In this document: in pieces, positions 14,129 through 30,800 of the stretch
How the letters are laid out: each line of letters opens with the position of its first letter
How positions within the stretch are numbered: position 1 is the first letter of the stretch
Source: Candidatus Saccharimonadota bacterium
Lineage (GTDB): Bacteria > Patescibacteriota > Gracilibacteria > BD1-5 > UBA2023
Assembly: GCA_046350815.1 (NCBI GenBank)
Contig: JAXLZO010000001.1
Location: forward strand, 270,001-302,000
Length of the DNA stretch: 32,000 bases
Direction: 5' to 3'
Notes under the pieces: model-generated
What the model saw: the letters and a program-made list of their open reading frames with translations, nothing else
What the model was told of the DNA's origin: nothing
The model's database searches: none
Made by a program: the position numbers and the translations under genes

Positions 14129-15100
14129 TTAAGAAAGTATCACCCCATTGAGAATCAATTGAAGCAAAAGATAACTTCCCATAAGGAGGATGCAACCGAT
14201 AACAATATACATAAGGATGGCCTTTGCTTTCTTCACACCTTCTTCTTGTCCACTACTGACCGCGAGAAGATAACCAGCATAAATAATCAAGAGGACGATG
14301 GCAATTCAAAGAAAGCTGCTCACATATTCAAGGATTTTAACAAGAGTTCCGCTTAATTCACTCAATCTTCCAAGATTTAATTTAATCTCACTACCCGATA
14401 CATCCGGATTTGTCACATCTCCATAGAATACTCGGACCAATACCTTTGGTATTTGTAAAAGTAAAAATCCAATAATAGCTGCTGTGACCATTGATTTTGC
14501 TTGTTTGATTTTCTCATCATTCCCAAGTGCTGTTGTAAGTTTGAACGCAGCCCATGTGCCCATAAAGAGAAACGTAATCTGTCAAAATGTAAGTAAAAAG
14601 TTTGTCAAAGGCAAGAGGATGCCACGATTGATATCAAGAGCGAGACTTCCATTTACCGCGTTTGCATTGGTAAAAAACATCACAAGACTATAAGCAGTCT
14701 GCATAAGAAATATACCAAGACCAACACTCACAATTCCTGACTTGAGACGTTTAACTTCTTCTTCCGTCGATCCAGCACCAAGTAACTTGATGACCATAAA
14801 GAGGAGTACTACGGAAGCAAGAATGATAATGACATTTTTTACGCTCTTTACAATATTCCATCCGGCTTGTCGAGCTCAAGCAAGATTGGTCACCTCGCTA
14901 TCATAGACCAGTTGCCCTGACCCAATACCAAGAATTTTTTTGGTTTCTAAATTAGGATCTGAACCTCGAAGTACCCCTCCAACTCATGAATCTTTTGTAT
15001 CCACATTAAAATCACTGTAATTCGTAGTTACGGCAAATACAGATGTGCCAAATCCAAAAAAAGTAAGAAGAGTGAAAATGGTAAGAAGAATTTTTTTCAT
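14129..15100 (-). CDS. polytopic membrane protein made of three TrbC/VirB2-pilin-like hairpin repeats
   Basis: 323 aa, one frame across 14582-14797 and 14306-14563 plus TGA read-through. Signal peptide MKKILLTIFTLLTFFGFGTSVFA. Three units of TM-G-x-[ED]E-x2-K-x-[AL]K-x-TM: LLGAGSTEEEVKRLKSGIVSVGLGIF, LGNDEKIKQAKSMVTAAIIGFLLL, SSGQEEGVKKAKAILMYIVIGCILL. Confidence 0.68.
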
Positions 15101-15108
15101 ATACAAAA

Positions 15109-18100
15109 CTAAGATGATGTATTTGTTTGTCCAAGTCCAAGACGTGCCTCGATTTCCATATCAACATATTCTTTCTTGCGTCCGTAAGTTTTACGAGAAT
15201 ATTCACGTATGATTTTTGCTACCTCATCGTTGCGATAAGTACTATCCCAAAGGGTCTTAAGATCAAATGGACGGCTCGATGCATTGTCGATATTGAGCTT
15301 ACAGTACGTCGTAAAGTTGGCGATACCAATAATGTCTTGTTGTGAGAGTACTGGGGCATACTCCTTCTCAAGGTACTCTGCATCATCCGCACCCACCTTG
15401 AACGACATAATCGTACCAGCATTCCCGAATACTGCATCCTTGATAGATGGTTTACCACCCTTTCCATTCTTATCTCATGATCCTCCAATCTGAGCAATAA
15501 ACTGATGTGCCATAATAAGAGCGAGACGATATTTACGAGCTTCTGAGAGAATCTCACCAAATGTATCTGTTGCAAAGTTTTGAAACTCATCAACATAAAG
15601 AAAGAAATCCTTACGTTCGCTCTCAGGAATATTCGCACGGCTCATAGCAGCCATATTGATCTTCGAAACCATGATAAGACCAAGAAGCTGGGCATTAAGG
15701 TCACCAATCGTACCTTTTGAAAGATTTACCATGAGAACCTTTTGGTCATCCATAACACGACGAAAGTTGAACGCTGATTTCGTCTGACCAATGATATTAC
15801 GAATGATGGTATTAGTAATGAATGGACCAAATTTCGCTGAAAAATATGGAATCATTTCTTGCTTCTCACGATCACCAGTTGAAGCATATTCATGTTCCCA
15901 AAAGGCTTTTACAACAGGATTCTTTACCTTTGAAACCTTATACTTCATAAAGGCATCATCCACAAAGAGACGTGGCACATCGATGAGTGTTCCGCCCTCT
16001 TCATCATCCTCCATAAGCGTGAGGGCACCATTGCGGAAATAGTGTTGAATACGAGGACCGAATACCTCATCGCCAAATATCTTAATGAATATTGCTGTGG
16101 CATCGAGTGCTGCACGATCTTTTTCCATCGCTCTCAAGGTAGAGTCTTCACTGATGACCTCAAGGATATTCATGCCCATAGGTCGCTCCCAATCACCAGG
16201 ATCGAAGATAATCATATCTTTTGCGCGAGATTTCGGAGTATATGCGATAACATCTTCTACAAGATCACCATGTGGATCAATAACGCAGAGACCATCTCCA
16301 CACCAGAGATCCTGGCGCGCCATATATCCTACAAATACTGATTTACCTCAACCTGACTTCCCAATAATATAATGATGACGACCTCGATCTTTTTTGCTAA
16401 AGTAAATCGGCGTTTTTTGATTGCGGTATTCATTCCAACCCATAAGAGCTGCATCACGGTAGAGAGGGAATCCACCAAGAGTTCGATGCACATCTTGTGC
16501 AATAGGATTTTTTCCAGGATCTATCGGCTTACCAGTGTTTTCACCCTCTGATACAACTGGAACCACTTCACCTGTAATGAGTTGTAATGATCGATCAGCT
16601 GCTCGTACGAGATTCTTATTCTTATCTACAAGCAGGATAGAACCATCTTCCGTATAAATATTTCCTTTTTTATCACGTTTGTAATCACTCATGATAAGTG
16701 GATCCTTTGGTGTTCTGAGGTTTGGAGGTGGTGCAATCATCTTGTACGAAAGCCACTTGATAATTGGTGATAGGTTATACTTGATATCAGGGAAATGATA
16801 CATAGTTGAGAGTTCATCCGTCGAATACACACTCGTTGTCTGAATGAGTGAAAGAAGACGACATTGAAAAGCAAAATATCGAACTGGGACGAATACGACT
16901 TTGAAAAGATCTTCAAACTGATGATTATCAAGAGAATTGTTGTATTCATCACTAAAACTCGATGTTACTGCAACGAGACTCTGAAGTCCAACATCCGCGG
17001 ATTCTGGAGTGTCGGATGCAACCAGAAATCGTATACTCGCTCGGAAAGCAAGTTGGCTCGCAGCTTCACCTACACGTTTTTGAGCTTCTGTCTCGGCTTG
17101 GTTGAATATCTTGTATGAATCACCACTCGAAGCACCAGGAGCATTCGATCCGCTGGTATCATTTTGCACAAAAAGATCAACAAACCATGATATTGGCTTC
17201 AGAAAGACACTCACCATATGAAAAAAGAAATTTCCAGAGTACCAACTCGTATAGGTACCTTTTGCAATGAGTCCAGCTGCTTTTTTTGCCTGTTTATTCC
17301 ACCCTTTTCATACTGGTTTCATAGTGAGTTGCATAACGGCAATGTCGGTTTTTTTGAGTGATCCAAATGAATTGGTAAGACTTGAGAGTGGATCATCCTC
17401 AAAAACTTTATATGGCTTGATAGGGTAAACATTATCCTTGGATTTAAAGATCGACGACACACGGAGAGTATATCACTGTGGCTTGGTCTCTGGGTAGTCC
17501 TCATTCTTAATGATAGCAACTTCGGCGTCAGGATAGAGTGCTGTAATTTGCTGAGAAACCACTTTTACATCCTCTGCATACGTTACGACAAAAAAGTACA
17601 CTTCGCCGTGATCGTAGACAAGTTCCAGTGAAATTTTGGTACGATTGAGGATCCAATTGCGCATCGTGTCCCAGAATTGAATATTCCCGAGCTTATGAAT
17701 AGAATTATAAAACACCGTCATAGAAGATATTTTTTCCTTGAAATCCTTGCGTGTTTCGCGTTCTTTATCTAGTTTTGAATCCGCTCTCGGGAGCATAACA
17801 CGTATGTATACCAAATTTTTCGCATGAAATACCTCATACATCAAGCGAATAATATGAAGCATTAAAATGCTGACAACGATAATAGCAAGAAGTGAGATGA
17901 TAAACTGAAATATTTTTGAGAAAATATTCGTATCATCCGTTTGTGTCTGTTGTGCACACGCTTTTGAATTACCTGAATTACAGAGGGCTTTCGTTTCAAC
18001 GGTGGATGGTTTTCCTGCTGCTGGTGTTGCACGATTCGCATTATCGATCAGTGCGGCGGAAGCATTCGGAATATGAACCGTCACCGTCAGAATACAGAGC

Positions 18101-18171
18101 GAAGAAAGCACAAAAACTATCAATCACAACAAAGATAGAAGAGGGCGATTTGATCGAGAAAATGGGAACAT
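15109..18171 (-). CDS. membrane-anchored FtsK/HerA-superfamily ATPase, TraG/TraD/VirD4-like (paralog A, 1020 aa)
   Basis: Four track fragments share one frame through 5 TGA codons. Signal/TM N-terminus, second TM FQFIISLLAIIVVSILMLHII. Walker A GKSG-G-GKS (16339-16362), VIDPHGD, Walker B FFLYVDEFQNF, ARKYRLALIMAHQFIAQI. Stop is 8 nt before the TrbC-like gene. Confidence 0.8.
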
Positions 18172-18267
18172 AGTTGGTATATACCCCTCAAGAGTAACAC
18201 ACATTCTCTCAATCGTCCAAATACTCATCTTTGCAAGTCAAAAAAATTGAGTATTATAACGAAAAAC

Positions 18268-19797
18268 GTGATTATACTTCTTCATTCCGTGTGCCTCTCT
18301 GGGCTCGAAGCACACTTGGTAACTCTCGAAATCGACGTATCAAATGGCATGCCGGCTTTTAATGTTGTCTGACTCACTGATACAGCCATTCAAGAAAGCA
18401 AAGAACGAGTACGAGCAGCTATCAAGAATAGCGAGTATAAATTCCCACAAACTCGCATCACTGTGAATCTTGCACCAGCGGATCTTCGGAAAAAATGACC
18501 GCTCTATGATCTTCCAATTGCACTTGGAATTATTTCATGAGAATGTTGATTCGATGAGGCACTTTTAAAAGAATCACTCTTTGTTGGAGAATGCAGCCTC
18601 GACGGAAGTATTCGATGAGTTCATGGAATCCTGCCTGCAGCTCTTTTTGCACGATCGATCGGAAAAAAATACCTCTTTGTTCCGGAAGAAAATGCAAAAG
18701 AGGCATCCATGGTTCCTGATATATCTGTGATTGCCATATCAAATCTGAAACAAGCAGTATCCTATCTTACAAAAGAGAAAGCATTGGAATTTGTACTCCC
18801 AGTAAATATTTTTGAGATTATCAAGAAAGATAAAGAGAAAATGGATCGATACGATCTCTCACACATCATCGGACAGGATCATGCAAAACGTGCCCTCACC
18901 ATAGCTGCGGCCGGTGGACACAATATTTTACTCGAATGACCCCCTGGATCTGGCAAAACACTCCTTGCAAAATCATTTGAAACACTCCTTCCAGATCTCA
19001 ATTTTGATGAAATGATTGAAGTATCTAAGATCTATTCAGTCGCCGGAAAATTAGAAAAAGGATCATCCCTCGTGACAACTCGGCCGATGCGAACCATTCA
19101 CCACTCAGCGAGCACCGTATCAGTGATCGGTGGTGGCCGAGATTCTCGTCCGGGAGAAATATCCCTCGCTCACAAATGAGTGCTTTTCCTGGATGAATTC
19201 CTCGAATTTGACTCCAATCTCCTCGAAACTCTCAGGCAACCACTCGAAGATGGAGAAATCACCATCAATCGTATCAATGCGAGCTACACCTATCCAGCAA
19301 AATTTGTACTCATAGGAGCGATGAATCCTTGTCCATGTGGGTATCTCTGAGACCGAAGCAAACAATGTGTCTGTAGTCCAACAACCATTGAAAGATATCG
19401 TAAAAAACTCTCCTGACCTATTATGGATCGTATAGATCTCATGATTCGAGTGCCACGTGTCCTCGAGAGTGACCTACAAAGCAAGAGCGAGTGAAGAAAG
19501 ACATCTGAAGAATATCGTCGAGAAATCGACAAAGCACGAGAACGACAACTCAAACGATTTAGCGGTACAAAAAAGACATTCAACAGCGAAATGGAGAACA
19601 AAGATCTTGAAACAATACTCAATATCCACCCAGATGCCGAGGCATTCCTCCTATCGGCTGTGACTCGACTTGATCTCTCGACACGTGTCTATTATCGACT
19701 GAAGAAACTCTCTCGAACCATAGCTGATCTCGCAGATTCAGATCAGATACTCCTCCCTCACGTGGCTGAAGCACTCTCCTACCGAGTATCCAACTAA
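18268..19797 (+). CDS. comM: Mg-chelatase-like AAA+ protein ComM/YifB
   Basis: [65 protein letters not shown]; each -G- is TGA. Start is GTG at 18268, or TTG at 18247. Confidence 0.92.
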
Positions 19798-19806
19798 ACT
19801 CAGAAT

Positions 19807-20913
19807 ATGTACAAATTCTCCCACCGCTCTGGCATGACGCTCATCGAAATTATGCTCGCTATCACCGTGCTCTCATCCATCATGATTGTCACGCTCGAGG
19901 CTATCAGCGGAACGCTCGCCTTCCGCAAACAAGCCACTGATGAACTCGATCTCTCAACCCAGAGTTATCTCGCTCTCGAAGTACTCACCCGAACGATCAA
20001 AGATGGATGATCGATCGACTACGAAGAATATTGGAATCGATCACGAGTGGGAACTGGGGTAGAATTTTGAGTCTATAGTGGCGCAACAGGATTTGGGAAT
20101 TATGGATACAATGCGGGGGCTATTAATAATACGAACACGAACTTTTGATCTGGAAAATACGTATGTGCTTATCAAAGCGGATCAGTAACTAATGCTTGTG
20201 ATAGTAATGAAAATTCATTCAATGGAGAAGCATGAGGAGCAACAGATACCTCAACGAAACCTCAACGCTTTGGTCAGTATGCTGCAAATTTTTACACATA
20301 CAAAACTGATGCAGATGGTGTCAATGGTATTATAGGTGACTATGATGATGAAGATCCAGGACTAGGTCCAGTAGCCATTCCTGACAATGGAAAACCAAAA
20401 GAGCTCTATCTCATCAAACGCACTAGCTCTGGAGTCGAGCGACTGATTATACGAAATTTTAAAATAAACGATTGATGAGTGTGTAATGATGCGACATGAG
20501 TAAATTGTCGATGACAGCTTGAGATTCTCAAGCTCAAAGGAAGTGATGAAGGACTAGATCATGATAGTACCAATTCTGATAAATCAGGGGAATACGATGG
20601 TATTATCGACACATGGCGCTGTCATCCAGATTATAGCTGTGCTTGACCTAATAATCTCCCACTTGGAACAGGATCAGAATTTGTACCACTCCTCCCACCT
20701 ACCATCAGCGTTCTGAACTGGCAGCTCGATGTAGCGCCGATCAAGGATGGTAACCGTAGCTGGCGAGAGCGTCAGTATTCACAGGCTCAGAGTGTGAGAC
20801 TCACCGTAACGCTCTGATGGAGCAATGTCCACAAGCAGACACTTAAAAATGGTAAAGAAAAAACTATCACTCTTTCAACACTCATTAATCTCGACAATGT
20901 ATGAAAACAATAA
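19807..20913 (+). CDS. type IV pilus minor pilin / pseudopilin-like protein (prepilin-type N-terminal methylation motif)
   Basis: HRSG-MTLIEIMLAITVLSSIMIV matches G/(F,M)TLIE plus a hydrophobic helix. 368 aa with 11 in-frame TGA and no TAA/TAG until 20911-20913. Confidence 0.75.
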
Positions 20914-21827
20914 CATCTTTTGCTCGGGACAAACGCTGAGTTGGTCTCATCTTCGCACTCGTATCAGTCGTGCTCCTCTCGATGATCATGACGGTATTCT
21001 ATGAGATCGTCATTCCACGTGCTCGTAATGTCAAAGGGATCGAGCAGAGTAATGTAGCAGCCTACAACGCTGAGAGTGGTATCGAGGCAAGTTTGAATAG
21101 CTTCAGTGGAAGCAATCCCGTTGCAGACGTAGACACCGGTTCAATTGGTATTTACAGTGTAAGTGGATCGATTAAACGTGAATGCACTAGTGGGCCATGC
21201 GTATTTCCTGAACCATGAAAATGAAATAGTCCAACTGACTCAAATTATAATATCATTCGACCTGGATCACCAATTCAAATACCAATTACAAATGGAACTA
21301 TAACTTCAGGTTTTAGTGTAAAGTTTCATATGCCTGAAGCTTTTAGTGGTGGCGTATTAAGTAGAAAATTAAAAGATGATGCAAAGCCCTACTTTATATG
21401 GACTTTTACAACAAATCCAGCAGCTCCATGAACAGCAAAGAGTATTACATCTCAGAGTGGTGCTCTTCTGCAATTTAATAATCTAACATCAATATTTGCA
21501 GTTGAAGGGAATAATTGAGAGAAGTGAATTAAAAATGATGGGACAAAAGATAATTGATTATGAGGATTTATCTCATCAAATGCATCAGATTGCACTTGAT
21601 ACAAATGCACACTCAAAATCTCACTCATTCGAGATTTAGAAACTGATGATGGAAAAAGAATTCCTTATCTTGAATATCAAATTACTACAACTGGGAATCT
21701 CACCATTCCTCTCCAATACGCAACGCTTACCTCTACCGGAACTCAAGGACCATTCTCAAAGACGGTCACTCGAGAGGTAGAACGATTCACCACCAACGAG
21801 GCCTTTGATTTTACGGTATTGCAATAA
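20901..21827 (+). CDS. PilX-like minor pilin candidate
   Basis: N-terminus FARDKR-G-VGLIFALVSVVLLSMIM is PilX_N-like. 308 aa with 9 in-frame TGA. Overlaps the preceding pilin gene by 13 nt. TAA at 21825-21827. Confidence 0.55.
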
Positions 21828-21836
21828 TATAAAACT

Positions 21837-21861
21837 GTCATCCTGAACTTGATTCAGGATC
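21837..21861 (+). repeat. GTCAT-hairpin-ATC dispersed repeat, copy 2
   Basis: gtcatCCTGAActtgaTTCAGGatc, 10 nt after the PilX-like stop. Confidence 0.75.
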
Positions 21862-21929
21862 TACTTCTTTAGTATTTTTCAAGTTATTCATCATTTAAAA
21901 ACAAAAAACTTACCCTTCAACTCATATCA

Positions 21930-22952
21930 ATGCCCAGAATCACTTACGAAATCAACGAAAACGACAGCAATCAACGCCTCGATAAATTTGCAAAGAAACT
22001 TCTCATAGATACTCCTCTCGCGGGTATTTATAAGATGATACGCTCAAAAGATATCGTTGTGAATGGAAAAAAGAGTGAACAAGACTATGTATTGCAGCAA
22101 GGTGATAGTGTCCGGATATTCCATCGAGAGGATCCTACATCGACAATGATAGACAACGGTCGACATAACAATGTCGAAGATAGAAAACCTGATTCTGAAA
22201 GGAAGAATTATAGCTTTCGTAGTATGATCATCTACGAAGATGACGACTTTGTATGCATCAATAAGCCGCCTCATCTGAACGTACATCCATGAGATCATAA
22301 GACGAAAGAAGTCTCACTCATAGAACTCGCCCTCGATTATTACCAAGGAAAATACAATTCTCTCACCTTCAAGCCATCACTCGTTCATCGTATCGATCGA
22401 CAGACAACTGGTTGTGTACTGATAGCTAAGAACAAACCAACCCTTGATGCACTCCTCGCACTACTCCAATCACAACAAATTGAGAAGACCTATCATACTA
22501 TCACCATTGAGAACTCTACGGTAAAATCACGAGATACTATACGATCGAAACTTGAGAGATATGATGCAGGCGGTGGAAGCAAGGTTCGTGTAAGTGAAGT
22601 ATGAGAACCGAGTGTTACTCACTATTCTACTCTCAAGAATCTCTCGAATAAATACAGACTTATCGAGTGTCGATTGGAGACAGGACGAATGCACCAGATT
22701 CGCGTACATCTCTCAAGCATCGGACTCCCAATCGTAGGAGATGGGTACTATGGAGAAAAATGAGAGAACAGCTTTGCAAAGCGAACTTATGGTATCGACC
22801 ATCAACTTCTTCATGCTTATAGATTGAGCTTCGAGCACCCGAGAACCCGCAAACAACTCAATATCATCGCTGCGTACCCAAAAGACTTTGAAGAATTTAT
22901 CCTATCAGTAAGATGTGATCACTATTCTGAAAGCATTTCAAGATCTAACTAG
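21930..22952 (+). CDS. RluA-family (RluC/RluD-type) pseudouridine synthase with N-terminal S4 domain
   Basis: S4-like QRLDKFAKKLL...VVNGKK, NVHP-G-D, catalytic HRIDRQTTGCVLIAK, GRMHQIRVH. TAG at 22950-22952. Confidence 0.9.
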
Positions 22953-22977: not shown

Positions 22978-23042
22978 TTCCGTTTCTCTACTAGTACTTC
23001 TCTCTTTGCATAGGAATAACAGGAATAATTGATACAATATTC

Positions 23043-23077
23043 AAAAAACAGCTCCTTGTCTAACGACCGGGAGCTGT
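23043..23077 (-). terminator. intrinsic terminator of the paralog-B operon
   Basis: The minus strand reads acagctcc-(14 nt loop containing the TAG stop)-ggagctgt followed by TTTTTT. Confidence 0.65.
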
Positions 23078-24034
23078 TACATTATGAGCTTTGTATATAA
23101 ATTGGCTAAACGGAGCCAGAGCATCATCCAGACGCTGACGCATGACAATATAACTATCTCGAATAAGCAAGAGATAAATATGAAGCTCATAAGCACTTTC
23201 AAAACTGAGATAGGAATCAAATGTTGAAGATATGGTTTGAGTAGCGAGGCTTGGAGCTGCAGCAATGCGGCTTTCAAGTATTTGTCGAGTACTCACGAGA
23301 TCATTCGTATTGCGAGCACCATCAAGGATAGCTCACTCTTGTTCTGCTACATTCTTGACGTAACGCGTATAAGCAAGATAACGACAAGTGAGATAGGATG
23401 ATGTATTGATAAGTCGTTCCGACATTACCTTTCGTTTGAGAGGCTCATTATTTGACTGTGTGCCAAGTGCCCGACATTTATAAAGAGTCGCATCTTCATT
23501 ATTCTTTTGTTTGAGGGGTGGGAGATAATCTTTGAGAGATGATTCTTGAAGAAATCGAAATCCGCCGTTTGACTTTGCAGCTTCGATATCATTGTATATT
23601 TGAGCTTTTGAATTCACAAGAGCGCAGGCAAAGAGATTGTTCAATACAGCATTATAGAGTTCGGTATTTGCTTCAAAGTAGTCGAGCATCTTCGGTGAGC
23701 TTACTGTCGGGGTATCTTCGCCAAGATCCCCACCCATATTTGGAACATTTCCTCCAAAATCACCAATCATTTTTCACACCGATTGAAGTGCTGCCTCATC
23801 GCCCATGGGAGCAAATTTGAGATCTTTTATCTTGAGAAAAGTATCAGTATCACCAGCTGACCAGGGGTTTGGGGCGCCACAAGTTGAGAGTCAGCTTGAG
23901 AGAGTTGAGTTATCACCCAAATATGTATCGTATATCGATTGATTCGTTGCACTCACCTGAGCAAAAACCTCGGAAGAAAATCCAAGGCACACAAAACCAA
24001 ATATCAAGAACGAACTAAAAATCTTTTGTAGCAT
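23060..24034 (-). CDS. secreted protein of unknown function (324 aa)
   Basis: Signal peptide MLQKIFSSFLIFGFVCLGFSSEVFA. Fragments 23333-23770 and 23060-23296 are joined by TGA. Its ATG overlaps the TAA of the upstream ATPase gene (TAATG). Confidence 0.6.
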
Positions 24035-26442
24035 TACCCGCCTATTCTATACGAAAGTTCTTTTTCGACAAATACTCGATCGCGTCCATATTTGAGACGA
24101 GAAAGTTCCGTGTAGATATGAGCATATTTTTTATCTCATTCTTCAAGATATGGATTGAGCGGAATAATCGAAAATGAAGGTGTTGGTTGACTATCAACAA
24201 GAGGTCGAATAACAGCTCGGAATTTATCCATATTCACGAGATCAAAGTCCGAGAAATTCGGCTTCATAATCTCTGATATTGCCTCTCCATCATCACTACC
24301 AATACGGTATGACATAACCGTACCAACGTTACCAAAAATAGCATCTTTAAGATTGAGGTTTGATTTTGTAAGTGAGTCTGATTTTTGAAGCTGTGCAATA
24401 TACTGATGTGCCACATTGAGAGAGAGTCGATACTTACGAGCTTCTGAGAGGATAGATTCGATTGATTCTGTAATATAGTTCTGAAACTCATCAATATAGA
24501 GAAAGAAATCACGTCGATCTTCCTTTGCTATAGACTGACGACGCATAGCCGCAATTTGCATCTTGGACACGAGTATGAGACCCAGCAGATTGGAATTAAA
24601 ATCACCGAGCAAACCTTTTGAAAGATTGATCAAGAGTATCTTTCCTGATTGCATACTATCATAAACATCGAATGAGCTGGTTGTTTGACCGATAATATTA
24701 CGCATCATTCGATTCGTAATGAATCCACCAAATTTTGCTTGAAAATATGGGATAATCTCGGCCTTTTCGCGGTCTCATTGTTTGGAATACACACCCTGCC
24801 ACCATTGTTTTACTGCTGGATCTTTGACAGTCTGACGCCGCGCCATCTGAAAATTATCATCCGTAAAGAGGCGTACTATGTCTGTGATTGCACCGCCTTC
24901 TGGATAGTCCATAAGCGTAATCGCACCATTTCGAAAATAATCCTGAATGCGAGGCCCAAATATCTCAGCACCAAAGAGTCGAATCATGATAGAAAGTGCA
25001 TCTTGTACCACCATTTGTTTTTCATCCTCAGTGCTGTATTCCAGCATATTCAGTCCCATCGGACGCTCAAGATCTGCGGGATTAAAATAAATCACATCTT
25101 CTGCGCGCTCTCTTGGGATAAATGGCAAGAGATCATGTGCAAAATCTCCATGCGGATCCATCACAGCGAGACCTTCTCCTGCACGGATATCCTGACGAGC
25201 CATGGAAGTTAATACTGTCGTTTTACCAGTACCAGTCTGCCCAATCACATAAAAATGACGAAAACGATCTTCTCTCTTGAGTCGAATTTCCCGACGAGTT
25301 CCACGATATTCGTTATGACCAATGAGAATTCCTTCTTTTGGCATATCTGGTGGTGCTCCAACAATCTTGAATCGTTGCCATTTGATCTCATGAACACGGT
25401 TATATTTGGAATGAGGGAAGTGATAGAGCGAAGCTATCTCCTCAAGACTCAAAATCGAGGGTGAGAGGAGGCTGCTCTGAGGAAAACGAAGAACAAACTT
25501 CTGAAAAAATCCTACCGATTCAATATATTTTGATGCCTTAAATCGATTGTACCCCGGAGATGCAAACTGACCAAAAGCTGCTTTGAGATGTTCAATCTCC
25601 GTCAGAACAAGCGAACGGTCATCACCCGTAACAAGGAGGCGTATAGCTACAGAATAACCAGATTTTTTGGCTTTTTCAGCAATATGTTCAGCGTCAGCGT
25701 TCTTATGATCGTCTTGGGGGGATTCTTTGTCTTGAGATGCATTTTCAGGCGACCAAAAAACAGAGAGAAGATGAGAGAGAAATCATGGATGATGCTTTCA
25801 TTTTTTCGAGAGTTTTTTCTCATAGCGTTGAGCGTTGTCTTGCCAAGTGTCTGGATAGGACTTCAGTACAATCTGAACGATCGCTCGTTCATGCTCTGCG
25901 AGTTTTGCGAGACTCGAGAGAATCGGATTCATAGGATCAGATTCTAGTTCCTTGTAGGATTTGATAGGGATAAAATAACTCTTATCAAGCTTAATATTCA
26001 CACCAACCGCGTGCGCATTAGATGAAAAAAGTTGTGGTTCTTCGATCTCCTCGAGGATAATATCACTATAGATAGCAGCAAGTTGTTTCTCTACGAATAC
26101 ACGATATTTCTTGTGCACAGCAATAACAAACGTGATCTCTCCTTCGCGTGCATGATATTCGAATGAAAGAAAATCACCCCGAAAAAATTGAGAGACAATA
26201 TTGCTTTTCTCAAACTGCTTAAAACTGGTGAGAAATTGCTCCATCAGACTAACGTGTTCTCGAAAATCTTTGATTGTGTCTTTGCGTTCATCAGCATCAC
26301 TATCCTTGCGGGTCATGAGCACTCGGATAAAAACAAGTTGTCTCGAATACCAAAGCTTCAGAAAAAATCTCAGAACAAAGAGAAAAATAAGAAATCAGAG
26401 AACGGCAAATGCAATGAGCGGACTCATTAAAGTAATATCCAT
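24034..26442 (-). CDS. membrane-anchored TraG/TraD/VirD4-like ATPase (paralog B, 802 aa)
   Basis: Fragments 25798-26322, 24775-25452 and 24136-24708 share one frame via TGA. N-terminal TM, Walker A GQTGTGKT, VMDPHGD, FFLYIDEFQNY, ARKYRLSLNVAHQYIAQL. Colinear with paralog A from the LV(Y/F)IRV segment to the C-terminus. Confidence 0.8.
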
Positions 26443-26558
26443 AGAGTGAATTGATATTACTATATCGTATTTATTGAAAAATTACGAAAAAAATGATCAT
26501 TTTTTATAATAGTTGGCTTGACGATAGTATTTTGTAATGATTGATGATTTTTTACAAC

Positions 26559-26585
26559 AAATCCCCACTATGATAGTGGGGATTT
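26559..26585. terminator. 12-bp perfect hairpin after the small secreted-protein gene (weak or bidirectional terminator)
   Basis: aaatccccacta-tga-tagtggggattt. Only a short T-run on either side. Confidence 0.45.
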
Positions 26586-26614
26586 TACGTTCGATAAGAC
26601 AAAATTGCCTCCGT

Positions 26615-26923
26615 TTAGTTTTTTGTGAGTTTTTGCACTTGCCGTGTACAGGGAACATCCAACTGATACAGTTCATCTGGATTATCTGGATTTTCAACCA
26701 GTATAACACAACTGTATAATGTAGTACTGTATTGGAATTTCATTACTTTTGGTTTCCCGCAAGTATGTTGTTCCACGACATCAAACGGAATAGGAGCATT
26801 TACCCCTTGGATCCGCACACCTGTGCGTGTATCAACTGCACACCATTTGTCCGTTCCCGCAAAGACTTGCATAGAAGAAAGGCAAGCGAGAACTCCTCCG
26901 ATTATCAACATACCCATTTTCAT
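26615..26923 (-). CDS. small secreted cysteine-containing protein (102 aa), unknown function
   Basis: Signal peptide MKMGMLIIGGVLACLSSMQVFA, four further Cys, TAA stop. AGGAG lies 6 nt before the ATG. Confidence 0.6.
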   Translation of the reverse strand: MKMGMLIIGGVLACLSSMQVFAGTDKWCAVDTRTGVRIQGVNAPIPFDVVEQHTCGKPKVMKFQYSTTLYSCVILVENPDNPDELYQLDVPCTRQVQKLTKN

Positions 26924-26967
26924 GACATTCTCCTATATTTGTTGTTCTTGAAAAGAGGGATTGGAGG

Positions 26968-26994
26968 ATTATAGACTAAAAAATTAAAAGTCAA
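26968..26994 (-). promoter_or_regulatory. near-consensus sigma-70-type promoter TTGACT-15-TATAAT
   Basis: The minus strand reads ttgact-15 nt-tataat, about 45 nt upstream of the ATG at 26923. Confidence 0.5.
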
Positions 26995-27026: not shown

Positions 27027-27054
27027 TTGTTATTTTTTGATGGTTTCATATACT
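27027..27054 (+). promoter_or_regulatory. promoter P+1: TTGTTA-16-TATACT (module 1 small-ORF transcript)
   Basis: The -10 hexamer lies inside the 44-nt repeat. The predicted +1 (about 27061) is the base of the CTCCCA/TGGGAG hairpin. Confidence 0.5.
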
Positions 27055-27085
27055 CTCGTCGCTCCCATTCCGTTGGGAGTGGGAG
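27042..27085 (+). repeat. 44-nt exact repeat, copy 1 (-10 box plus 5-prime hairpin)
   Basis: ggtttcatatactctcgtcgctcccattccgttgggagtgggag. Identical to 27360-27403. Confidence 0.95.
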
Positions 27086-27111
27086 GTTTATTTTGGTAAA
27101 CTTCTTACTGT

Positions 27112-27222
27112 ATGAAATTCTTTCGAGAATTTTGGATCAAGATGTGGTGTCTCAGTATTGAGATACAGCTTGATAAGAAGCGAAGAATGAAGGTCTATGA
27201 CGATAGTTCTGAGCAAAAATAA
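27112..27222 (+). CDS. small ORF 1 (36 aa) of the type-I-TA-like module; coding status unproven
   Basis: MKFFREFWIKMWCLSIEIQLDKKRRMKVYDDSSEQK. The ATG is embedded in direct repeat DRb, and TAA abuts terminator T1. Confidence 0.35.
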   Translation: MKFFREFWIKMWCLSIEIQLDKKRRMKVYDDSSEQK

Positions 27223-27297
27223 AAGACCCGCGTCAACGGGTCTTTTATTTTGGGAGGCTTATTTCCCTTCTTACAGTATGAGGCCTCCGAAGAGGTC
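27214..27297 (-). ncRNA. predicted antisense sRNA 1 (~84 nt)
   Basis: Own promoter (27304-27331). The 5-prime end folds as GACCUC-UUCG-GAGGCC. The body is complementary to the ORF1 leader and start codon. Ends at T1. Confidence 0.5.
27221..27251. terminator. bidirectional intrinsic terminator T1
   Basis: aaaagacccg-cgtcaa-cgggtctttt with T-runs on both strands. Confidence 0.8.
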
Positions 27298-27303
27298 AAT
27301 ACA

Positions 27304-27331
27304 AGTATAGCAGATGACTCTAGAAATGCAA
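27304..27331 (-). promoter_or_regulatory. promoter P-1: TTGCAT-16-TATACT (sRNA 1)
   Basis: Minus-strand hexamers at 27331-27326 and 27309-27304. Hexamers and spacing are identical in the second copy (27613-27640). Confidence 0.55.
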
Positions 27332-27344
27332 ATATTTTGGATTC

Positions 27345-27372
27345 TTGCTTTTGGAATTGGGTTTCATATACT
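27345..27372 (+). promoter_or_regulatory. promoter P+2: TTGCTT-16-TATACT (module 2 small-ORF transcript)
   Basis: Same geometry as P+1. The -10 box lies inside repeat copy 2. Confidence 0.5.
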
Positions 27373-27403
27373 CTCGTCGCTCCCATTCCGTTGGGAGTGG
27401 GAG
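27360..27403 (+). repeat. 44-nt exact repeat, copy 2
   Basis: Identical to 27042-27085, with a 318-nt period. Confidence 0.95.
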
Positions 27404-27428
27404 ATTTTTATCTCTTTACTGCGATTTT

Positions 27429-27533
27429 ATGAGGAATTTCCTCAAATATCTCACAGCTCTTCTGGGCTATGAGATTCATCGAGTGGGTGGAAGAGCTCGA
27501 AAGATGCTGATCCGCAAGCTCCGATGAAAATAA
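27429..27533 (+). CDS. small ORF 2 (34 aa) of the type-I-TA-like module; coding status unproven
   Basis: MRNFLKYLTALLGYEIHRVGGRARKMLIRKLR-G-K (one TGA). The ATG is 2 nt after DRb. TAA abuts T2. Confidence 0.35.
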
Positions 27534-27606
27534 TAAAACCCCCGGCAAGGGGTTTTATTATTTGGGAGATTTCTCTTCCTTACTGCGATTGGTCTCTTGC
27601 GAGATC
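27526..27606 (-). ncRNA. predicted antisense sRNA 2 (~81 nt)
   Basis: Promoter at 27613-27640. The 5-prime end folds as GAUCUC-GCAA-GAGACC. The body is complementary to the ORF2 leader. Ends at T2. Confidence 0.5.
27535..27563. terminator. bidirectional intrinsic terminator T2
   Basis: aaaacccc-cggcaa-ggggtttt with flanking T-runs on both strands. Confidence 0.8.
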
Positions 27607-27612
27607 AGAGTA

Positions 27613-27640
27613 AGTATAGCAGATGGCACAGGAAATGCAA
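27613..27640 (-). promoter_or_regulatory. promoter P-2: TTGCAT-16-TATACT (sRNA 2)
   Basis: Minus-strand hexamers at 27640-27635 and 27618-27613. Confidence 0.55.
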
Positions 27641-27653
27641 ATATTTTGAAATC

Positions 27654-27747
27654 TCCGACTCGCGATGACTATATCGCTCCCTGGACTGTTGAAACTTGTC
27701 CGACTCGCGATGACTATATCGCTCCCTGGACTGTTGAAACTTGTCCG
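27654..27747 (+). repeat. perfect 45-bp tandem duplication (2.1 copies)
   Basis: tccgactcgcgatgactatatcgctccctggactgttgaaacttg at 27654-27698 and 27699-27743, then tccg. Confidence 0.95.
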
Positions 27748-27898: not shown

Positions 27899-30800
27899 CT
27901 AGTAAGTACCAGCAGAGCGAGAGAATGAAGTAGAAGCTGGAAGACCAGTTCCGTTGTAAGACTTGATAGAAGTGATCGCTGAAGTAGCGTAGTCACCTTG
28001 CTCTTTGTCGAAGTAAGCAACATCATTAACTGAAGTGTTAATAGTGTTGTTATCACCAGTAGCAGTACCATCGAAGTCAGCAAGAATCGTAACAGTTTGA
28101 CCTGCGAGGATTTCAAGCTTTGTTGATTGTCCATTAACAGGAATAGCAAGACCATTTGTAGCACTTACAGCACCTGAAGAGATCATCTCAGATGTAGAAG
28201 CTGTTTCACCCTTATAGAGAGTTACAGTTCCAGTTGAAGAAGAAACGAAGAGATCTTTTACCATTACTGCGTCAGTACCATTGTTAGTAATAGTGAATTT
28301 CACCTTACCTGCACCAGCATCAGAGATAGAGATGCCAGCAGCAGCAACAACGAGCTTACCAGCAGTAATAAGATCAGCCTTAGTAAGAGTACCAGTTGAA
28401 GCAACACGTCAGCATCAGTAAGAACTATCAATTGAACCTTCAAGACGAGATCGCATTGATCTGCAAAACCATTTACATTTCCACCTTGAGCATCACGTCA
28501 CATCAACACCATTAGCATACACCAGCATTCAAGCTTAACATCTTAAGACCAGAATCACCAACACCAAGTTTTGCAATAGAAGCCTTAACAGAAAGCTCTG
28601 CATCAGTATTGCGAGCAACAATATATGAAGAATCAACGAAGTTGTTAAACTTAACGTTAATAGCAACTCCATTTGTTGTAAATAACTGTACCATAAGCAA
28701 CAACCTTACCAGCAGCATCTACGAGAGTAGGAGACTTGAATAAGACGAGCAAGCTGATTTATCAGCTTGCAGAACCACTCAGTGAACCACCTTAATTGAG
28801 CAAGAGAAAGATAGAGCTCCTTAACATAGAGAGATCATCATTTGTTGCACGAACACGAATTTACCAAGTTCAATAGAACATTTTGAGCATTACAAGAAGA
28901 TATCAGCAGCATCATCAGTAGAAACAGCAATATCAAGCTGCAGCATTTGATAGTGAGACCGTAGCCAGCAATAGTTGCATTTGAAACAACAACATTGTTA
29001 CCATTTACATCAGATACATTTGATCAGTCTTGCGAGTCAACAGTTGTAATCTTTCACCATTTGCAAATCGAGGAAGAGCAGTCTTGAGCTCGATAGTTGC
29101 AGCCTTGAAGACTTTTCTACCTTGAATGTAGAGAATGAGCAACAGTTCCAGTATCAGCATCTACCTACAGTAGAAGCTTGGCAACAGAAGCAACCTACGA
29201 GAGTACCATTGATGTAGAGAGCAACCGTGAAGATCCTTAAGTTTATCTGCAGTACCAGAAGCAGTTCAACTGAAGTTGCAGCAAATCGACTCAGAAGTAA
29301 CAGTAATGTCAGAAACATCATTGTTATTGAGAGTATACTTGAGGAAGAGAGATTCTTCGCACCACCTACTACTTTGAAGCAACTGGAGATTGTTTGAAAT
29401 AGTAACACCTGCACCCTTAACAGTTACCTTAATAGGAGAGAGATCCACTTGCATCAGTTCAACCTTACGATCTGAAGAAGTATAACGAATATCGTTACCT
29501 AATGCTGCATTACCAGTTGCAAGAGATACAGTCAGCAAGTTGGAATGAACCAGAAGCAGCATCAGCACGAACATCAGCAGTAACAGTGAAGTCACTTGTA
29601 CCAGCATCAACAACAAATGATTGCGTTGATAGTATAACTCAAGAGGTGACACCAGCTGTAAATTGAGCTTGAACCATCAACACTAATTGATTGACCAGCA
29701 ATATTTACACGAATACTTGTCTGCATCAAGTTTTGCAAGAGCACCTGTAGTAAGAAGGTTCAAATGAGAGTAAGATCACGAAGCTTAACACCTTCCTTAG
29801 CAGTGATAGTACCCTTAGCAAGAATTACATCATTCTGACCAGCAGCAACATCAACATTAGCAGTATTTCCAACGTAGTGAGAGAGAAAGAGAACCAGCCT
29901 CTACTTAATGAATAGAAGATTTTCTTGCATCAACGTTGTAGTTGAAGCTTGTAGCAGCACGGTATCCAGTAGCAACTTCCTCAGCAATTACATGTTCTCA
30001 TTCGATTATCAAAATGAGAATTGAAGAGACATCATTTGTCTTTATCAATACCAGTAATATCACCCTTAAGTTGGTAATTTCGAGATGAGTTTGTGTAAGC
30101 AATAGTGTCATTCAACACGAATGTAAATATTACGACCATCAACAACAACATCAGAAGAAACCTTAGCACCAGTTACCTTAGAGTAGATTGCAAGATTTGC
30201 AAGGTACTTAACATCGAGGTTTTTTTCGTTGTAGAAGAGTAACATTCTTAAGAAGAACATCACGGCTACCAGAAGTTTTACACGGAATTCACCGAGAATA
30301 ACATCCTTTTCACCAGCCTTAACATCTTTTGAGTAGGTGCACTTACAGATTCAAAATCTACCTTGAGTAGTAGTATAGTTTGTAGTAACAAGAGTATTTG
30401 ATACAAGAGGGAATGCTGCAGTAAGAGTAGAAGCAGTAGAACAATATCCTTAGCAGCTACGATTGCAAAATTGTGTTGTGCACCAGATACACCAGGAGAT
30501 CGAAGCTTAACAATAAGATCGAGGGTTCCAGTTGTACCAGCCATAATCTTCCAAGCTGGAGTGAATGAAAGAGTAACAGTTTCATCTGAGTTTACAGAAG
30601 CTTGTGTAGTAACACGCTTACCGTTGTACTCGAACCAAACTGAATCAATTCCATCACGTTGACCAAGACCACCACGCTTCATCTTGATAGACTTGAGAGT
30701 CACATCAGAAGATGCAGCAGCAAATGAGTATTTACCAGCCTTGATTGTACCAACCTTTGGAACATATTGCATTCCCATAGCGTCGTTGCTGATAGTAAGA

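What the first reader, a model, noticed from the sequence alone, without database searches (positions are those of the whole stretch)
23060..26923. Second, paralogous VirD4/TraG-like ATPase with different partners: two secreted proteins of unknown function
Paralog B (24034-26442) aligns with paralog A by eye from the juxtamembrane LV(F/Y)IRV..R.DS...ER.. segment through SLYHFP/TMYHFP, the Walker A motif, (V/I)(M/I)DPHGD, RPMG(L/M)N(M/I)LE, FGPRIQ(D/H)YFRNGA(I/L)TLM, DEFQN and ARKYRL..AHQ. It lacks the long insert of A, and its C-terminus differs. Instead of the pilin-repeat protein, it is translationally coupled (TAATG at 24032-24036) to a 324-aa signal-peptide protein. It is preceded by a 102-aa Cys-containing secreted protein that has a near-consensus promoter and one of the few clear AGGAG ribosome-binding sites in the window. 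Two diverged copies of the motor with different extracytoplasmic partners suggest functional specialisation, for example different cargo or different surface structures.
Basis: partly seen in the sequence, partly recalled or inferred. Interest (0 to 1): 0.65.

Follow-up and report, generated by a model that had tools for sequence, protein, structure and literature searches.

The report
Second secretion-type ATPase with secreted partner
A tiny symbiotic-type bacterium that reads the TGA stop codon as glycine carries a second, anciently diverged copy of a membrane-anchored secretion ATPase. That copy is coupled to a previously unnamed secreted helical protein that keeps this position in several distant relatives, which gives a testable lead on what these "orphan" ATPases do.

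Summary

- **Gene B** (24034-26442, minus strand, 802 aa) is a true paralogue of A (15109-18285). They share 47% identity over the ATPase and 25% over the N-terminal domain.
- **Family.** Both are DUF8128 plus VirD4/TrwB-type coupling-protein ATPases, a family common in Patescibacteria and usually found far from virB4.
- **Age of the split.** A and B fall in separate clades that predate the Gracilibacteria-Peregrinibacteria split, so they are not recent duplicates.
- **The 324-aa partner.** B overlaps its start (TAATG). This protein founds an unannotated family of at least 85 cluster representatives. They have a signal peptide, four conserved cysteines and an all-helical confident model, with no Pfam, PDB or Foldseek match.
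- **Linkage.** The family sits directly after a B-type ATPase in six lineages, at only 22-24% identity to p324. In low-GC relatives it instead sits beside a T2SSE pilus ATPase.
- **The 102-aa protein.** It is real but genus-restricted, very fast-evolving and has its own promoter-like site, AGGAG and terminator. It is not a conserved partner.

Function is inferred: probably a surface component of a pilus or secretion apparatus that B powers. The interest is moderate. B is a known kind of ATPase, while the partner family is new.

The parts
24034..26442 (-). Gene B: 802-aa DUF8128 plus T4CP (VirD4/TrwB-type) ATPase with 5 in-frame TGA (Gly) codons
   Evidence: Code-25 translation. Pfam PF02534 at 36.9 bits and PF10412 at 33.6 bits, both above their cut-offs. 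Orthologues of about 55% identity carry PF26449. A 100%-identical copy in L097 has its N-terminal fragment annotated PF26449.
26356..26424 (-). Single N-terminal transmembrane helix of B (about residues 7-29); basic residues follow it, so the rest of the protein is predicted to be cytoplasmic
   Evidence: Hydropathy scan. The AF2 model of the orthologue has helix 3-34. The topology is inferred from the positive-inside rule.
25219..25242 (-). Walker A motif GQTGTGKT (residues 401-408)
   Evidence: Sequence; invariant columns G401-K407 in alignment A4.
24478..24492 (-). Walker B region DEFQN (residues 651-655)
   Evidence: Invariant columns D651-N655.
24032..24036 (-). TAATG overlap: the stop codon of B and the start codon of p324 share a base
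   Evidence: Read directly. The same overlap occurs in L001 and L002, and gaps of 2-14 nt occur in L006, L085 and L094.
23060..24034 (-). p324: 324-aa exported all-helical protein, founding member of an unannotated family; 3 TGA (Gly) codons
   Evidence: Family of 85 cluster representatives. The alignment has four conserved Cys plus H285, R299, Q311, Y314 and K315. AF2 pLDDT is 85.8 and pTM 0.80. There are no Pfam, NCBIfam, PDB or Foldseek matches.
23960..24034 (-). Predicted Sec signal peptide of p324 (residues 1-25, ...EVFA|QV)
   Evidence: Hydropathy: 58 of 64 full-length family members have an N-terminal hydrophobic segment and none has a later TM-like segment. A25 is nearly invariant. The cleavage site is inferred.
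23042..23077 (-). Terminator-like hairpin (8-bp GC-rich stem) followed by U6, ending the B-p324 unit; the p324 stop codon lies in the loop
   Evidence: RNA fold of -21.2 kcal/mol with z -5.0; sequence.
26615..26923 (-). p102: 102-aa small secreted protein with a signal peptide and four Cys in the mature part; genus-restricted and fast-evolving
   Evidence: Cluster of 8 sequences at 90% identity or more. A diverged copy at 40% identity with conserved Cys lies upstream of the B orthologue in L089/L090. dN is 0.57 against 0.037 for B. No family hits.
26930..26994 (-). p102 expression signals: TTGACT (26994-26989), 15-nt spacer, TATAAT (26973-26968), AGGAG (26934-26930)
   Evidence: Read. It is the only AGGAG among 23 gene starts. 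The consensus scan did not call it because the spacer is 15 nt.
26559..26585 (-). Terminator-like hairpin (12-bp stem) between p102 and B, which makes p102 a separate transcript
   Evidence: RNA fold of -22.6 kcal/mol with z -4.7.
15109..18285 (-). Paralogue A (1058 aa), given for comparison: two TM helices, about 77-aa insert, A-type clade
14129..15100 (-). A's downstream partner: 323-aa protein with three T4SS_pilin (PF18895) repeats
   Evidence: Pfam E 3.7e-14 with 3 stretches. A homologue lies upstream of the B-type ATPase in L006.

Best explanation
**Shown**
- B is the B-type member of an ancient pair of DUF8128 plus coupling-protein (VirD4/TrwB-type) ATPases that belong to the chromosome of Gracilibacteria-class Patescibacteria.
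- It has one N-terminal membrane helix, then an alpha/beta DUF8128 domain of about 310 aa, then a TrwB-fold P-loop ATPase with an all-helical insert.
- B and p324 form a two-gene unit: the stop and start codons overlap and a terminator follows p324.
- p324 belongs to a previously unannotated family of exported proteins. They have four conserved cysteines, a variable N-terminal half, a strongly conserved C-terminal long helix and an NPxxQxxYK end motif.
- In six lineages this family lies directly downstream of a B-type ATPase. In another clade it lies next to a T2SSE pilus or secretion ATPase.

**Inferred**
- p324 is a cell-surface structural or adaptor component of a filament or secretion apparatus. 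Candidates are the Patescibacterial T4SS-like system with VirB2-like pilins, or type IV pili.
- Its assembly or use is powered from the cytoplasmic side by the B hexamer, acting through membrane parts encoded elsewhere.
- Its variable half faces the host or environment.
- A does the equivalent job with the VirB2-like pilin-repeat protein.
- p102 is a separate, lineage-specific, rapidly evolving small secreted protein that happens to lie upstream. It is not part of the conserved module.
For: - **Paralogy and family.**. A model of a 58%-identical orthologue matches TrwB with E 3e-13 and target-normalised TM-score (TMt) 0.64. Plasmid relatives are annotated as T4SS DNA-binding, TraM-recognition or DUF87 proteins, never as VirB4.
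- **Ancient split.** A's ATPase domain is 64-67% identical to the clade L036/39/40/42/43/46/48/49/50/62 but 47% to B. B is 53-56% identical to L003-L010.
- **Operon structure.**
- **Partner family and export.**
- **Linkage.** A p324-family gene lies directly after the ATPase in the window, L001, L002, L003, L006, L085/86, L087, L089/90, L094, L095 and L096. This includes every locus recovered by searching with p324 alone that has upstream DNA.
- **Link to T4SS pilin.** L006 has pilin-repeat, then ATPase, then p324-like.
- **Exported partner as a theme.** The sister clade has a secreted 3D-domain plus PG_binding_1 protein downstream of the B-type ATPase in 11 loci.
- **Surface-like evolution.** dN of p324 is 3.3 times that of B and RluD, with change concentrated in the N-terminal half.
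- **Literature.** 5,713 VirD4-like T4CPs were found in 2,918 Patescibacteria genomes, mostly far from virB4 and possibly exapted (PMC12102498).
Against: - No physical or functional link between B and p324 was tested. Adjacency could be inherited synteny, because the whole block ComM, pseudopilins, RluD, p324, B is syntenic in the window, L001/2 and L085.
- B exposes only about 6 residues outside the membrane, so it cannot touch p324 directly.
- Canonical coupling proteins recruit cytoplasmic substrates, not Sec-exported ones.
- B-type orthologues in low-GC Gracilibacteria and in other Patescibacteria lack the partner.
- The p324 family also occurs without any T4CP neighbour.
- No VirB4, VirB6 or relaxase gene lies in the window.
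- The t4cp gene was not essential for epibiotic growth in the one Patescibacterium tested (PMC12102498).
Confidence: 0.5

Rival explanations
1. The adjacency has no shared mechanism. p324 belongs functionally to the type IV pilus or pseudopilus system or to the general envelope. It merely sits at the edge of a conserved chromosomal block next to B.
For: - In the low-GC clade the family lies after a 187-aa gene, divergent from a T2SSE ATPase and convergent with a LysM/CHAP gene, with no T4CP nearby.
- In the window, L001/2 and L085 the pair lies next to RluD, two pseudopilin-like genes and ComM.
- B orthologues in many lineages lack it.
Against: - Overlapping or near-overlapping stop and start codons occur in several lineages.
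- In L006, L094 and L096 the pair is kept while tblastn finds no RluD, pseudopilin or ComM homologue in the DNA held downstream (L096 holds under 0.5 kb there).
- The pairing persists at 22-24% p324 identity, a depth at which neutral synteny usually decays.
Confidence: 0.22
2. B is functionally a VirB4-like assembly ATPase rather than a substrate-coupling protein. The order pilin, ATPase, p324 would then mirror virB2, (virB3-)virB4, virB5, with p324 as a VirB5-like tip or stalk protein.
For: - The full-length model of the B orthologue has TrwK/VirB4 as its top Foldseek hits (E 2e-15 over 850-900 columns).
- B has VirB4-like length and an N-terminal domain plus C-terminal ATPase layout, with an N-terminal TM helix as in VirB3-VirB4 fusions.
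- The L006 gene order fits.
- p324 is a Sec-exported helical protein, as VirB5 is.
Against: - TM-scores to VirB4 are only 0.30-0.33 with rmsd about 15 A, no better than TrwB alone at a query-normalised TM-score (TMq) of 0.36.
- No VirB4 Pfam family matches, and TIGR00929 scores 14 bits against a cut-off of 643.
- A DUF8128 profile finds no VirB4 in PDB or Pfam.
- p324 has no Foldseek or Pfam match to VirB5/TraC.
- Patescibacteria have separate bona fide VirB4 genes (PMC12102498).
Confidence: 0.13
3. B is a DNA translocase used in DNA uptake or transfer together with the neighbouring ComM helicase and type IV pseudopilins. p324 would be an extracellular DNA- or pilus-binding receptor.
For: - B has the TrwB/HerA/FtsK-type fold with an all-alpha domain.
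- NCBIfam gives weak hits to TraD and to the archaeal DNA-importing CedD.
- ComM and two pseudopilin-like genes lie within 5 kb in the window, L001/2, L085 and L089.
- DNA uptake is a proposed nutrient route in this group (PMC8080830).
Against: - The ComM and pseudopilin neighbourhood is absent from L006 and L094.
- All NCBIfam scores are far below their cut-offs.
- Nothing in p324 resembles known DNA-binding folds.
- No ComEC or ComEA gene lies in the window.
Confidence: 0.1
4. p102 is the functional extracytoplasmic partner or cargo of B.
For: - It lies directly upstream of B on the same strand in the window, L097/98 and L089/90.
- It has a signal peptide and conserved cysteines.
Against: - It has its own promoter-like site, SD and terminator.
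- No homologue occurs in L003, L006, L085, L094 or L095, where other genes occupy the position.
- Its dN is 15 times that of B.
Confidence: 0.05

Closest known systems
Type IV coupling proteins (VirD4 / TraG / TrwB; Pfam PF02534, PF10412)
   Same: - P-loop ATPase with Walker A and B motifs.
- TrwB-like fold with an inserted all-helical domain.
- N-terminal membrane anchor.
- Pfam scores above the gathering thresholds.
   Different: - An extra DUF8128 domain of about 310 aa lies between the anchor and the ATPase.
- B has one TM helix rather than two.
- It is chromosomal, with no VirB4, relaxase or other T4SS gene nearby.
- It is paired with a Sec-exported protein.
- Sequence similarity to characterised T4CPs is remote. 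NCBIfam scores reach at most 41 bits against cut-offs of 250 or more, and TrwB matches by sequence only around Walker A.
Patescibacterial orphan T4CP homologues (DUF8128, PF26449), described in bulk in PMC12102498
   Same: - B and A are members. There are about two copies per genome, mostly far from virB4, and the function is unknown.
- Orthologues occur from Gracilibacteria to Saccharibacteria, Uhrbacteria and Doudnabacteria.
   Different: The library searched holds no paper that mentions DUF8128. The T4SS survey read here treats these T4CPs only in bulk, without an A-type/B-type split or partner families.
VirB4 (TrwK) ATPases of type IV secretion systems
   Same: - Similar size and two-domain layout.
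- They are the best Foldseek E-values for the full-length orthologue model.
   Different: - TM-scores are low.
- There is no VirB4 sequence signature.
- Plasmid relatives are annotated as T4CP or DUF87 proteins.
VirB5 / TraC minor pilins, as an analogy for p324
   Same: - Sec signal peptide.
- All-helical with long helices.
- Encoded just after the big ATPase, and in L006 in the same cluster as a VirB2-like pilin.
   Different: - No detectable sequence or structure similarity.
- p324 is about 100 aa longer and has four conserved cysteines.
- It also occurs next to T2SSE ATPases.

Membership tests
T4CP (VirD4/TraG/TrwB) | P-loop ATPase with Walker A and Walker B motifs | tested here: met
   GQTGTGKT at residues 401-408 and DEFQN at 651-655, invariant among 22 and 52 orthologues.
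T4CP (VirD4/TraG/TrwB) | Match to the family's curated profiles above threshold | tested here: met
   PF02534 scores 36.9 bits (cut-off 20.1) over residues 388-723. PF10412 scores 33.6 bits (cut-off 20.5). All NCBIfam T4CP equivalogs are far below their cut-offs.
T4CP (VirD4/TraG/TrwB) | TrwB-type fold: RecA-like core with an inserted all-alpha domain | tested here: met
   Tested on orthologue P0006 (58% identical), not on B itself. TrwB matches with E 3e-13, TMt 0.64-0.66 and rmsd 5-6 A. A helical block at 472-598 lies between core strands.
T4CP (VirD4/TraG/TrwB) | N-terminal transmembrane anchor | tested here: met
   One hydrophobic 19-mer in B and two in A; model helix 3-34. This rests on a heuristic, not a dedicated predictor.
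T4CP (VirD4/TraG/TrwB) | Genetic context with a T4SS (VirB4, VirB6) and/or a relaxase | tested here: not met
   None is present in the 32-kb window or in the flanks of the orthologous loci inspected. The rest of the genome was not available.
T4CP (VirD4/TraG/TrwB) | Couples cytoplasmic substrates (DNA-relaxase or effectors) to a secretion channel | not testable with these tools
   This needs biochemistry or genetics.
DUF8128 (PF26449)-T4CP proteins of Patescibacteria | PF26449 domain N-terminal to the ATPase, total length about 800 aa | tested here: met
   115 of the 120 listed homologues carry PF26449; the other 5 are shorter proteins of 444-788 aa or have no domain record. The N-terminal fragment of the 100%-identical gene in L097 is annotated PF26449. 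The local Pfam copy gave no PF26449 hit for B, so it probably lacks this model.
VirB4 | VirB4 sequence signatures (PF03135, TIGR00929) and VirB4 N-terminal domain | tested here: not met
   There is no PF03135 hit, and TIGR00929 scores 14.4 bits against a cut-off of 643. The DUF8128 profile finds no VirB4. Foldseek full-length hits to TrwK have TM 0.30-0.33, so they are inconclusive for the N-terminal domain.
VirB5/TraC-type minor pilin (for p324) | Sequence or fold similarity to VirB5/TraC | tested here: not met
   There is no Pfam family among 66 members. There is no PDB sequence hit. No Foldseek hit has E below 0.5 in PDB or BFVD.
VirB2-like T4SS pilin PF18895 (for p324 and p102) | PF18895 match | tested here: not met
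   Only A's partner matches (E 3.7e-14). p324 and p102 have no hit.
Anti-phage defence ATPases (HerA-type) | Match to a PADLOC system protein together with its partner genes | tested here: not met
   There are only weak hits confined to the P-loop ATPase domain (mad8 43 bits, HerA 19 bits or less). The partners have no hits.

The most novel reading that the evidence does not exclude
DUF8128-T4CP ATPases are not substrate couplers. They are the motors of small, lineage-variable surface modules in host-dependent Patescibacteria. In Gracilibacteria, the set of VirB2-like pilin, B-type ATPase and p324 would form a minimal virB2/virB4/virB5-like pilus. p324, with a new fold, would be its disulfide-locked tip or stalk protein, and its fast-evolving half would contact the host cell.
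Probability: 0.13. Interest if true: 0.75.

Novelty: new variant of a known kind. Interest (0 to 1): 0.45.

Why it matters
Almost every Patescibacterium carries about two orphan coupling-protein-like ATPases whose role is unknown, and which were not needed for epibiotic growth in the one species tested (PMC12102498). This work adds three things:

- The two copies in this class are ancient, separately conserved lineages.
- One lineage carries a tightly coupled, exported partner family that is so far unnamed.
- The partner of the B-type ATPase is an exported envelope protein in two different clades: the p324 family in one, and a 3D-domain cell-wall protein in the other.

Together these give concrete handles (p324, its conserved C-terminal helix, its cysteines) for asking whether these ATPases build host-contact structures. 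If they do, it would bear on how these ultra-small bacteria attach to and exploit their hosts.

Tried and rejected
- **Standard-code ORF calling** gave only fragments, so all proteins were re-translated with code 25 in Python.
- **Rejected job.** The 99%-identical database protein P0001 was used instead.
- **Word-index homology search** with p324 found only 3 close relatives. With the family profile it found only 9. The full HMMER scan was needed.
- **Metagenome scan.** The 66-sequence family alignment had no stretch conserved enough for the scan, so a subfamily alignment was used.
- **p324 against known families:** Pfam, NCBIfam, PADLOC, PHROGs, PDB by profile, and Foldseek against PDB and BFVD. 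All were negative.
- **p102:** no family hit, and no homologue beyond the genus in 100 loci. No structure was predicted because it has no diverse alignment.
- **DUF8128-only profile** against PDB and Pfam found nothing.
- **Mobile-element or phage origin was rejected.** The neighbours are housekeeping genes, only 3 partial matches exist in 2.9 million viral contigs, and synteny is conserved. The full-length match to phrog_5156 remains unexplained.
- **Defence-system reading was rejected**.
- **Large genes upstream of B orthologues** in Peregrinibacteria are DnaE-like (PHP-domain N-terminus) and AspRS-like by their sequences. This rests on recognition from the sequence, not on a tool result. 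They are therefore unrelated neighbours.

Full report
**Genetic code and gene models.** The table-11 ORF list shows the region as fragments. With TGA read as sense, the summed length of ORFs of 150 aa or more rises from 12.6 kb to 54 kb, and four clean minus-strand genes appear:
- p102, 26615-26923
- B, 24034-26442 (802 aa, 5 TGA codons)
- p324, 23060-24034 (3 TGA codons)
- A, 15109-18285 (1058 aa), further on

TGA stands for glycine. One GroEL TGA codon aligns with a Gly of the E. coli AGGGVAL motif. B's TGA codons at residues 220, 556 and 769 fall in Gly-dominated columns of standard-code homologues. Trp does not appear among the commonest residues in any of these columns. TGA and GGN also swap between p324 homologues. 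The window therefore comes from a code-25 organism. The nearest homologues are labelled Candidatus Gracilibacteria.

**The observation.** A and B are paralogues. They share 47% identity over 442 aa of the ATPase (E 4e-136) and 25% over 406 aa of the N-terminal domain (E 8e-31). A has an insert of about 77 aa and a second N-terminal membrane helix. The TAATG overlap between B and p324 is real.

p102 has these signals:
- TTGACT, a 15-nt spacer and TATAAT
- an AGGAG six nt before its ATG, the only such site among 23 gene starts in the window
- a 12-bp hairpin before B (-22.6 kcal/mol, z -4.7)

A second hairpin followed by U6 comes after p324 (-21.2 kcal/mol, z -5.0). The transcription units predicted from the sequence are therefore p102 alone and B with p324.

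**What B is.**
- Pfam places the C-terminal half in the coupling-protein families. PF02534 scores 36.9 bits and PF10412 scores 33.6 bits, both above threshold.
- More than 3,600 homologues exist. The closest are about 800-aa proteins, 52-58% identical, and they carry PF26449 (DUF8128) at the N-terminus. A 100%-identical copy in L097 is annotated the same way.
- An AlphaFold model of a 58%-identical orthologue (pLDDT 78.5) has one long N-terminal helix, an alpha/beta domain of about 310 residues, and an ATPase with a helical insert.
- Foldseek matches the ATPase half to TrwB (E 3e-13, target-normalised TM-score 0.64). It also hits HerA and DotL.
- The best E-values (2e-15) go to full-length TrwK/VirB4, but with TM 0.30-0.33 and rmsd about 15 A.
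- A DUF8128-only profile finds nothing in PDB or Pfam. VirB4 profiles do not match. Plasmid-encoded relatives are annotated as T4SS DNA-binding, TraM-recognition or DUF87 proteins.

I file B as a DUF8128-T4CP. The VirB4-like overall layout stays an open point. The published survey of Patescibacterial T4SS counted 5,713 VirD4-like T4CPs in 2,918 genomes. Only 148 were near virB4, and the gene was non-essential in the one species tested (PMC12102498). A and B fit that picture.

**Age of the duplication.** I took 74 homologues from one-genome-per-species loci.
- A's ATPase domain is 64-67% identical to the group L036/39/40/42/43/46/48/49/50/62.
- B is 53-56% identical over its full length to L003-L010, and 43-47% to a Peregrinibacteria/Peribacteria group.
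- A neighbour-joining tree puts A and B in these separate clades.

They are old paralogues, not recent duplicates. The tree is simple NJ, but the identity pattern agrees with it.

**The 324-aa partner.** The word-based search found only three close relatives, all with the same synteny. A full HMMER scan with their profile found 85 cluster representatives, mostly 260-350 aa. The family has these features:
- an N-terminal hydrophobic segment in 58 of 64 full-length members, and no later membrane segment
- four conserved cysteines
- an invariant or near-invariant H285, R299, P308, Q311, Y314 and K315 near the C-terminus
- a confident all-helical model (pLDDT 85.8, pTM 0.80) ending in a 78-residue helix

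It has no match in Pfam, NCBIfam, PADLOC, PHROGs, PDB sequences, or Foldseek against PDB and BFVD.

**Is the pairing conserved?** A p324-family gene lies directly after the B-type ATPase in all of the following:
- the window's own genus: L001, L002, L087-L093, L097
- L003 and L095 (standard code)
- L006 (recoded)
- L085 and L086 (60% GC, standard code)
- L094
- L096

Across lineages p324 identity is only 22-24%, while the ATPase stays at about 55%. The metagenome search used only a p324 motif. Even so, every recovered locus with enough upstream DNA to test had the ATPase. L088 holds only the last 32 codons of the B orthologue. Gaps are -1 to 14 nt in five lineages and about 50 to 190 nt in the remaining loci (L003, L095, L096).

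The link is not universal. Six low-GC Gracilibacteria with B orthologues lack it. In that clade a second subfamily sits after a 187-aa gene, divergent from a T2SSE ATPase and convergent with a LysM/CHAP gene, in four contigs. The family therefore always neighbours a secretion- or pilus-type ATPase gene, of one of two kinds.

**Other partners.**
- In L006 the B-type ATPase has a homologue of A's pilin-repeat protein immediately upstream (E 3e-36) and the p324-like gene downstream. The pilin and p324 are therefore not exclusive to different paralogues.
- In a Peregrinibacteria-type subclade the B-type ATPase is followed, in 11 loci, by a secreted 3D-domain plus PG_binding_1 protein, a likely cell-wall-lytic enzyme.
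- Four A-type orthologues are followed by a DsbA-like gene: Pfam confirms two, and the other two show the same APVTIVEFS..CP.C thioredoxin motif. Only two have a pilin-repeat gene within 8 kb.

**Rates of change.** I compared the window with a congener (L089, dS about 1).

| Gene | dN |
|---|---|
| B | 0.037 |
| RluD | 0.033 |
| ComM | 0.039 |
| p324 | 0.122 |
| pp308 (pseudopilin-like, 20901-21827) | 0.157 |
| p102 | 0.574 |

In p324 the change is concentrated in the N-terminal half, while the last 120 residues are almost invariant. That pattern fits surface-exposed proteins with a conserved docking end.

**p102.** It is a real gene. There are eight variants at 90% identity or more. A 40%-identical copy keeps all four cysteines, upstream of B in L089/L090. 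No homologue appears in any other lineage. In L085 the slot is filled by an unrelated 379-aa secreted protein. With its own signals, p102 is best seen as a lineage-specific small secreted protein, not as part of the module.

**Mechanism.** Shown are the family assignment, the ancient split, the operon layout, the exported nature of p324 and the conservation of the pairing. The rest is inferred:
- B is a cytoplasmic hexameric motor held at the membrane by one helix.
- p324 is a disulfide-stabilised extracellular component of a filament or secretion machine.
- That machine is the T4SS-like system with VirB2-like pilins, or type IV pili.
- p324's use depends on B through membrane parts encoded elsewhere.

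I give this 0.5. The main rivals are synteny without shared function (0.22), a virB2/B4/B5-like minimal pilus (0.13) and a DNA-uptake translocase acting with ComM and pseudopilins (0.10).

**Verdict.** The finding is real and was carefully observed. B belongs to a known kind of ATPase that already has a Pfam domain and has been surveyed in bulk. The new elements are the A/B clade structure, the unnamed p324 family and its conserved coupling. No function is demonstrated, so the interest is moderate (0.45).

Noticed in passing
whole window; e.g. 1165-2805 (GroEL), 24034-26442: TGA is a sense codon read as glycine (code 25). Standard-code tools split nearly every gene, and public databases hold these proteins with W at those positions or as fragments.
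   Followed up: yes
window 27900-31483, minus strand: An SLH-domain S-layer-like gene starts at 31483. After about 350 codons it continues in shifting reading frames down to about 27900, with Ala/Thr/Val-rich repeats. The orthologue in L085 (2608-6102) is an intact 1164-aa protein upstream of the B orthologue. This could reflect frameshifts, assembly error or a pseudogene.
   Followed up: partly
window 27042-27743: The intergenic region upstream of p102 holds repeated modules. A 48-nt element with a GC hairpin occurs twice, 318 nt apart (27042-27089 and 27360-27407, 98% identical). A 54-nt repeat lies at 27292-27345 and 27601-27654. A perfect 45-nt tandem pair lies at 27654-27743. A similar PFRWEWE-coding hairpin motif lies upstream of p102 in L089.
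   Followed up: no
window 26930-26934: p102 is the only one of 23 genes in the window with an AGGAG Shine-Dalgarno site; only A has a 4-nt partial match (GAGG) and the rest have none. This may mark high expression or foreign origin.
   Followed up: partly
L006 902-8871: In one recoded Gracilibacterium the order is VirB2-like pilin-repeat gene, B-type ATPase, p324-like gene, then a 1189-aa secreted protein with no Pfam match. This is the only locus that joins pilin and p324 around one ATPase.
   Followed up: partly
L083 1244-5262; L084 5500-9360; L099; L100: A second p324 subfamily (C-terminus ...NPINQVVYKISNAMKK) in low-GC Gracilibacteria lies after a 187-aa membrane-anchored protein. It is divergent from a 400-430-aa T2SSE ATPase and convergent with a LysM/CHAP cell-wall hydrolase.
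   Followed up: partly
L011, L013-L017, L019-L021, L024, L032 (downstream of the ATPase match): In Peregrinibacteria/Peribacteria-type genomes the B-type ATPase is followed by a secreted 3D-domain plus PG_binding_1 protein, a probable peptidoglycan-lytic enzyme.
   Followed up: partly
L039 3771-4376; L043 12703-13500; L045 4787-5524; L050 12575-13303: Four A-type orthologues are followed by a DsbA-like thiol-disulfide oxidoreductase: Pfam confirms L039 and L043, and L045 and L050 show the same thioredoxin motif by eye. This fits the cysteine-bearing exported proteins around these ATPases.
   Followed up: partly
model of orthologue P0006 (stands for window 24034-26442): The best Foldseek E-values for the full-length protein go to TrwK/VirB4 rather than TrwB, although the TM-scores are low. 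Whether DUF8128 is a VirB4-type N-terminal domain is unresolved.
   Followed up: partly
window 24034-26442: B matches PHROG family phrog_5156 (unknown function) over its full length (E 5e-82). Yet only 3 partial homologues were found in 2.9 million IMG/VR contigs. The origin of that phage family entry is unclear.
   Followed up: partly
window 18349-22952: Between A and p324 lie ComM (Mg-chelatase-like), two pseudopilin-like genes (one with an N_methyl motif) and an RluD-type pseudouridine synthase. This block is syntenic in L001, L002, L085 and L089. The pseudopilin-like genes evolve faster than their neighbours.
   Followed up: partly
window 9681-10670, minus strand: A sortase-domain protein (329 aa) is encoded 4.5 kb from the pilin-repeat gene. 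No LPXTG substrates were looked for.
   Followed up: no
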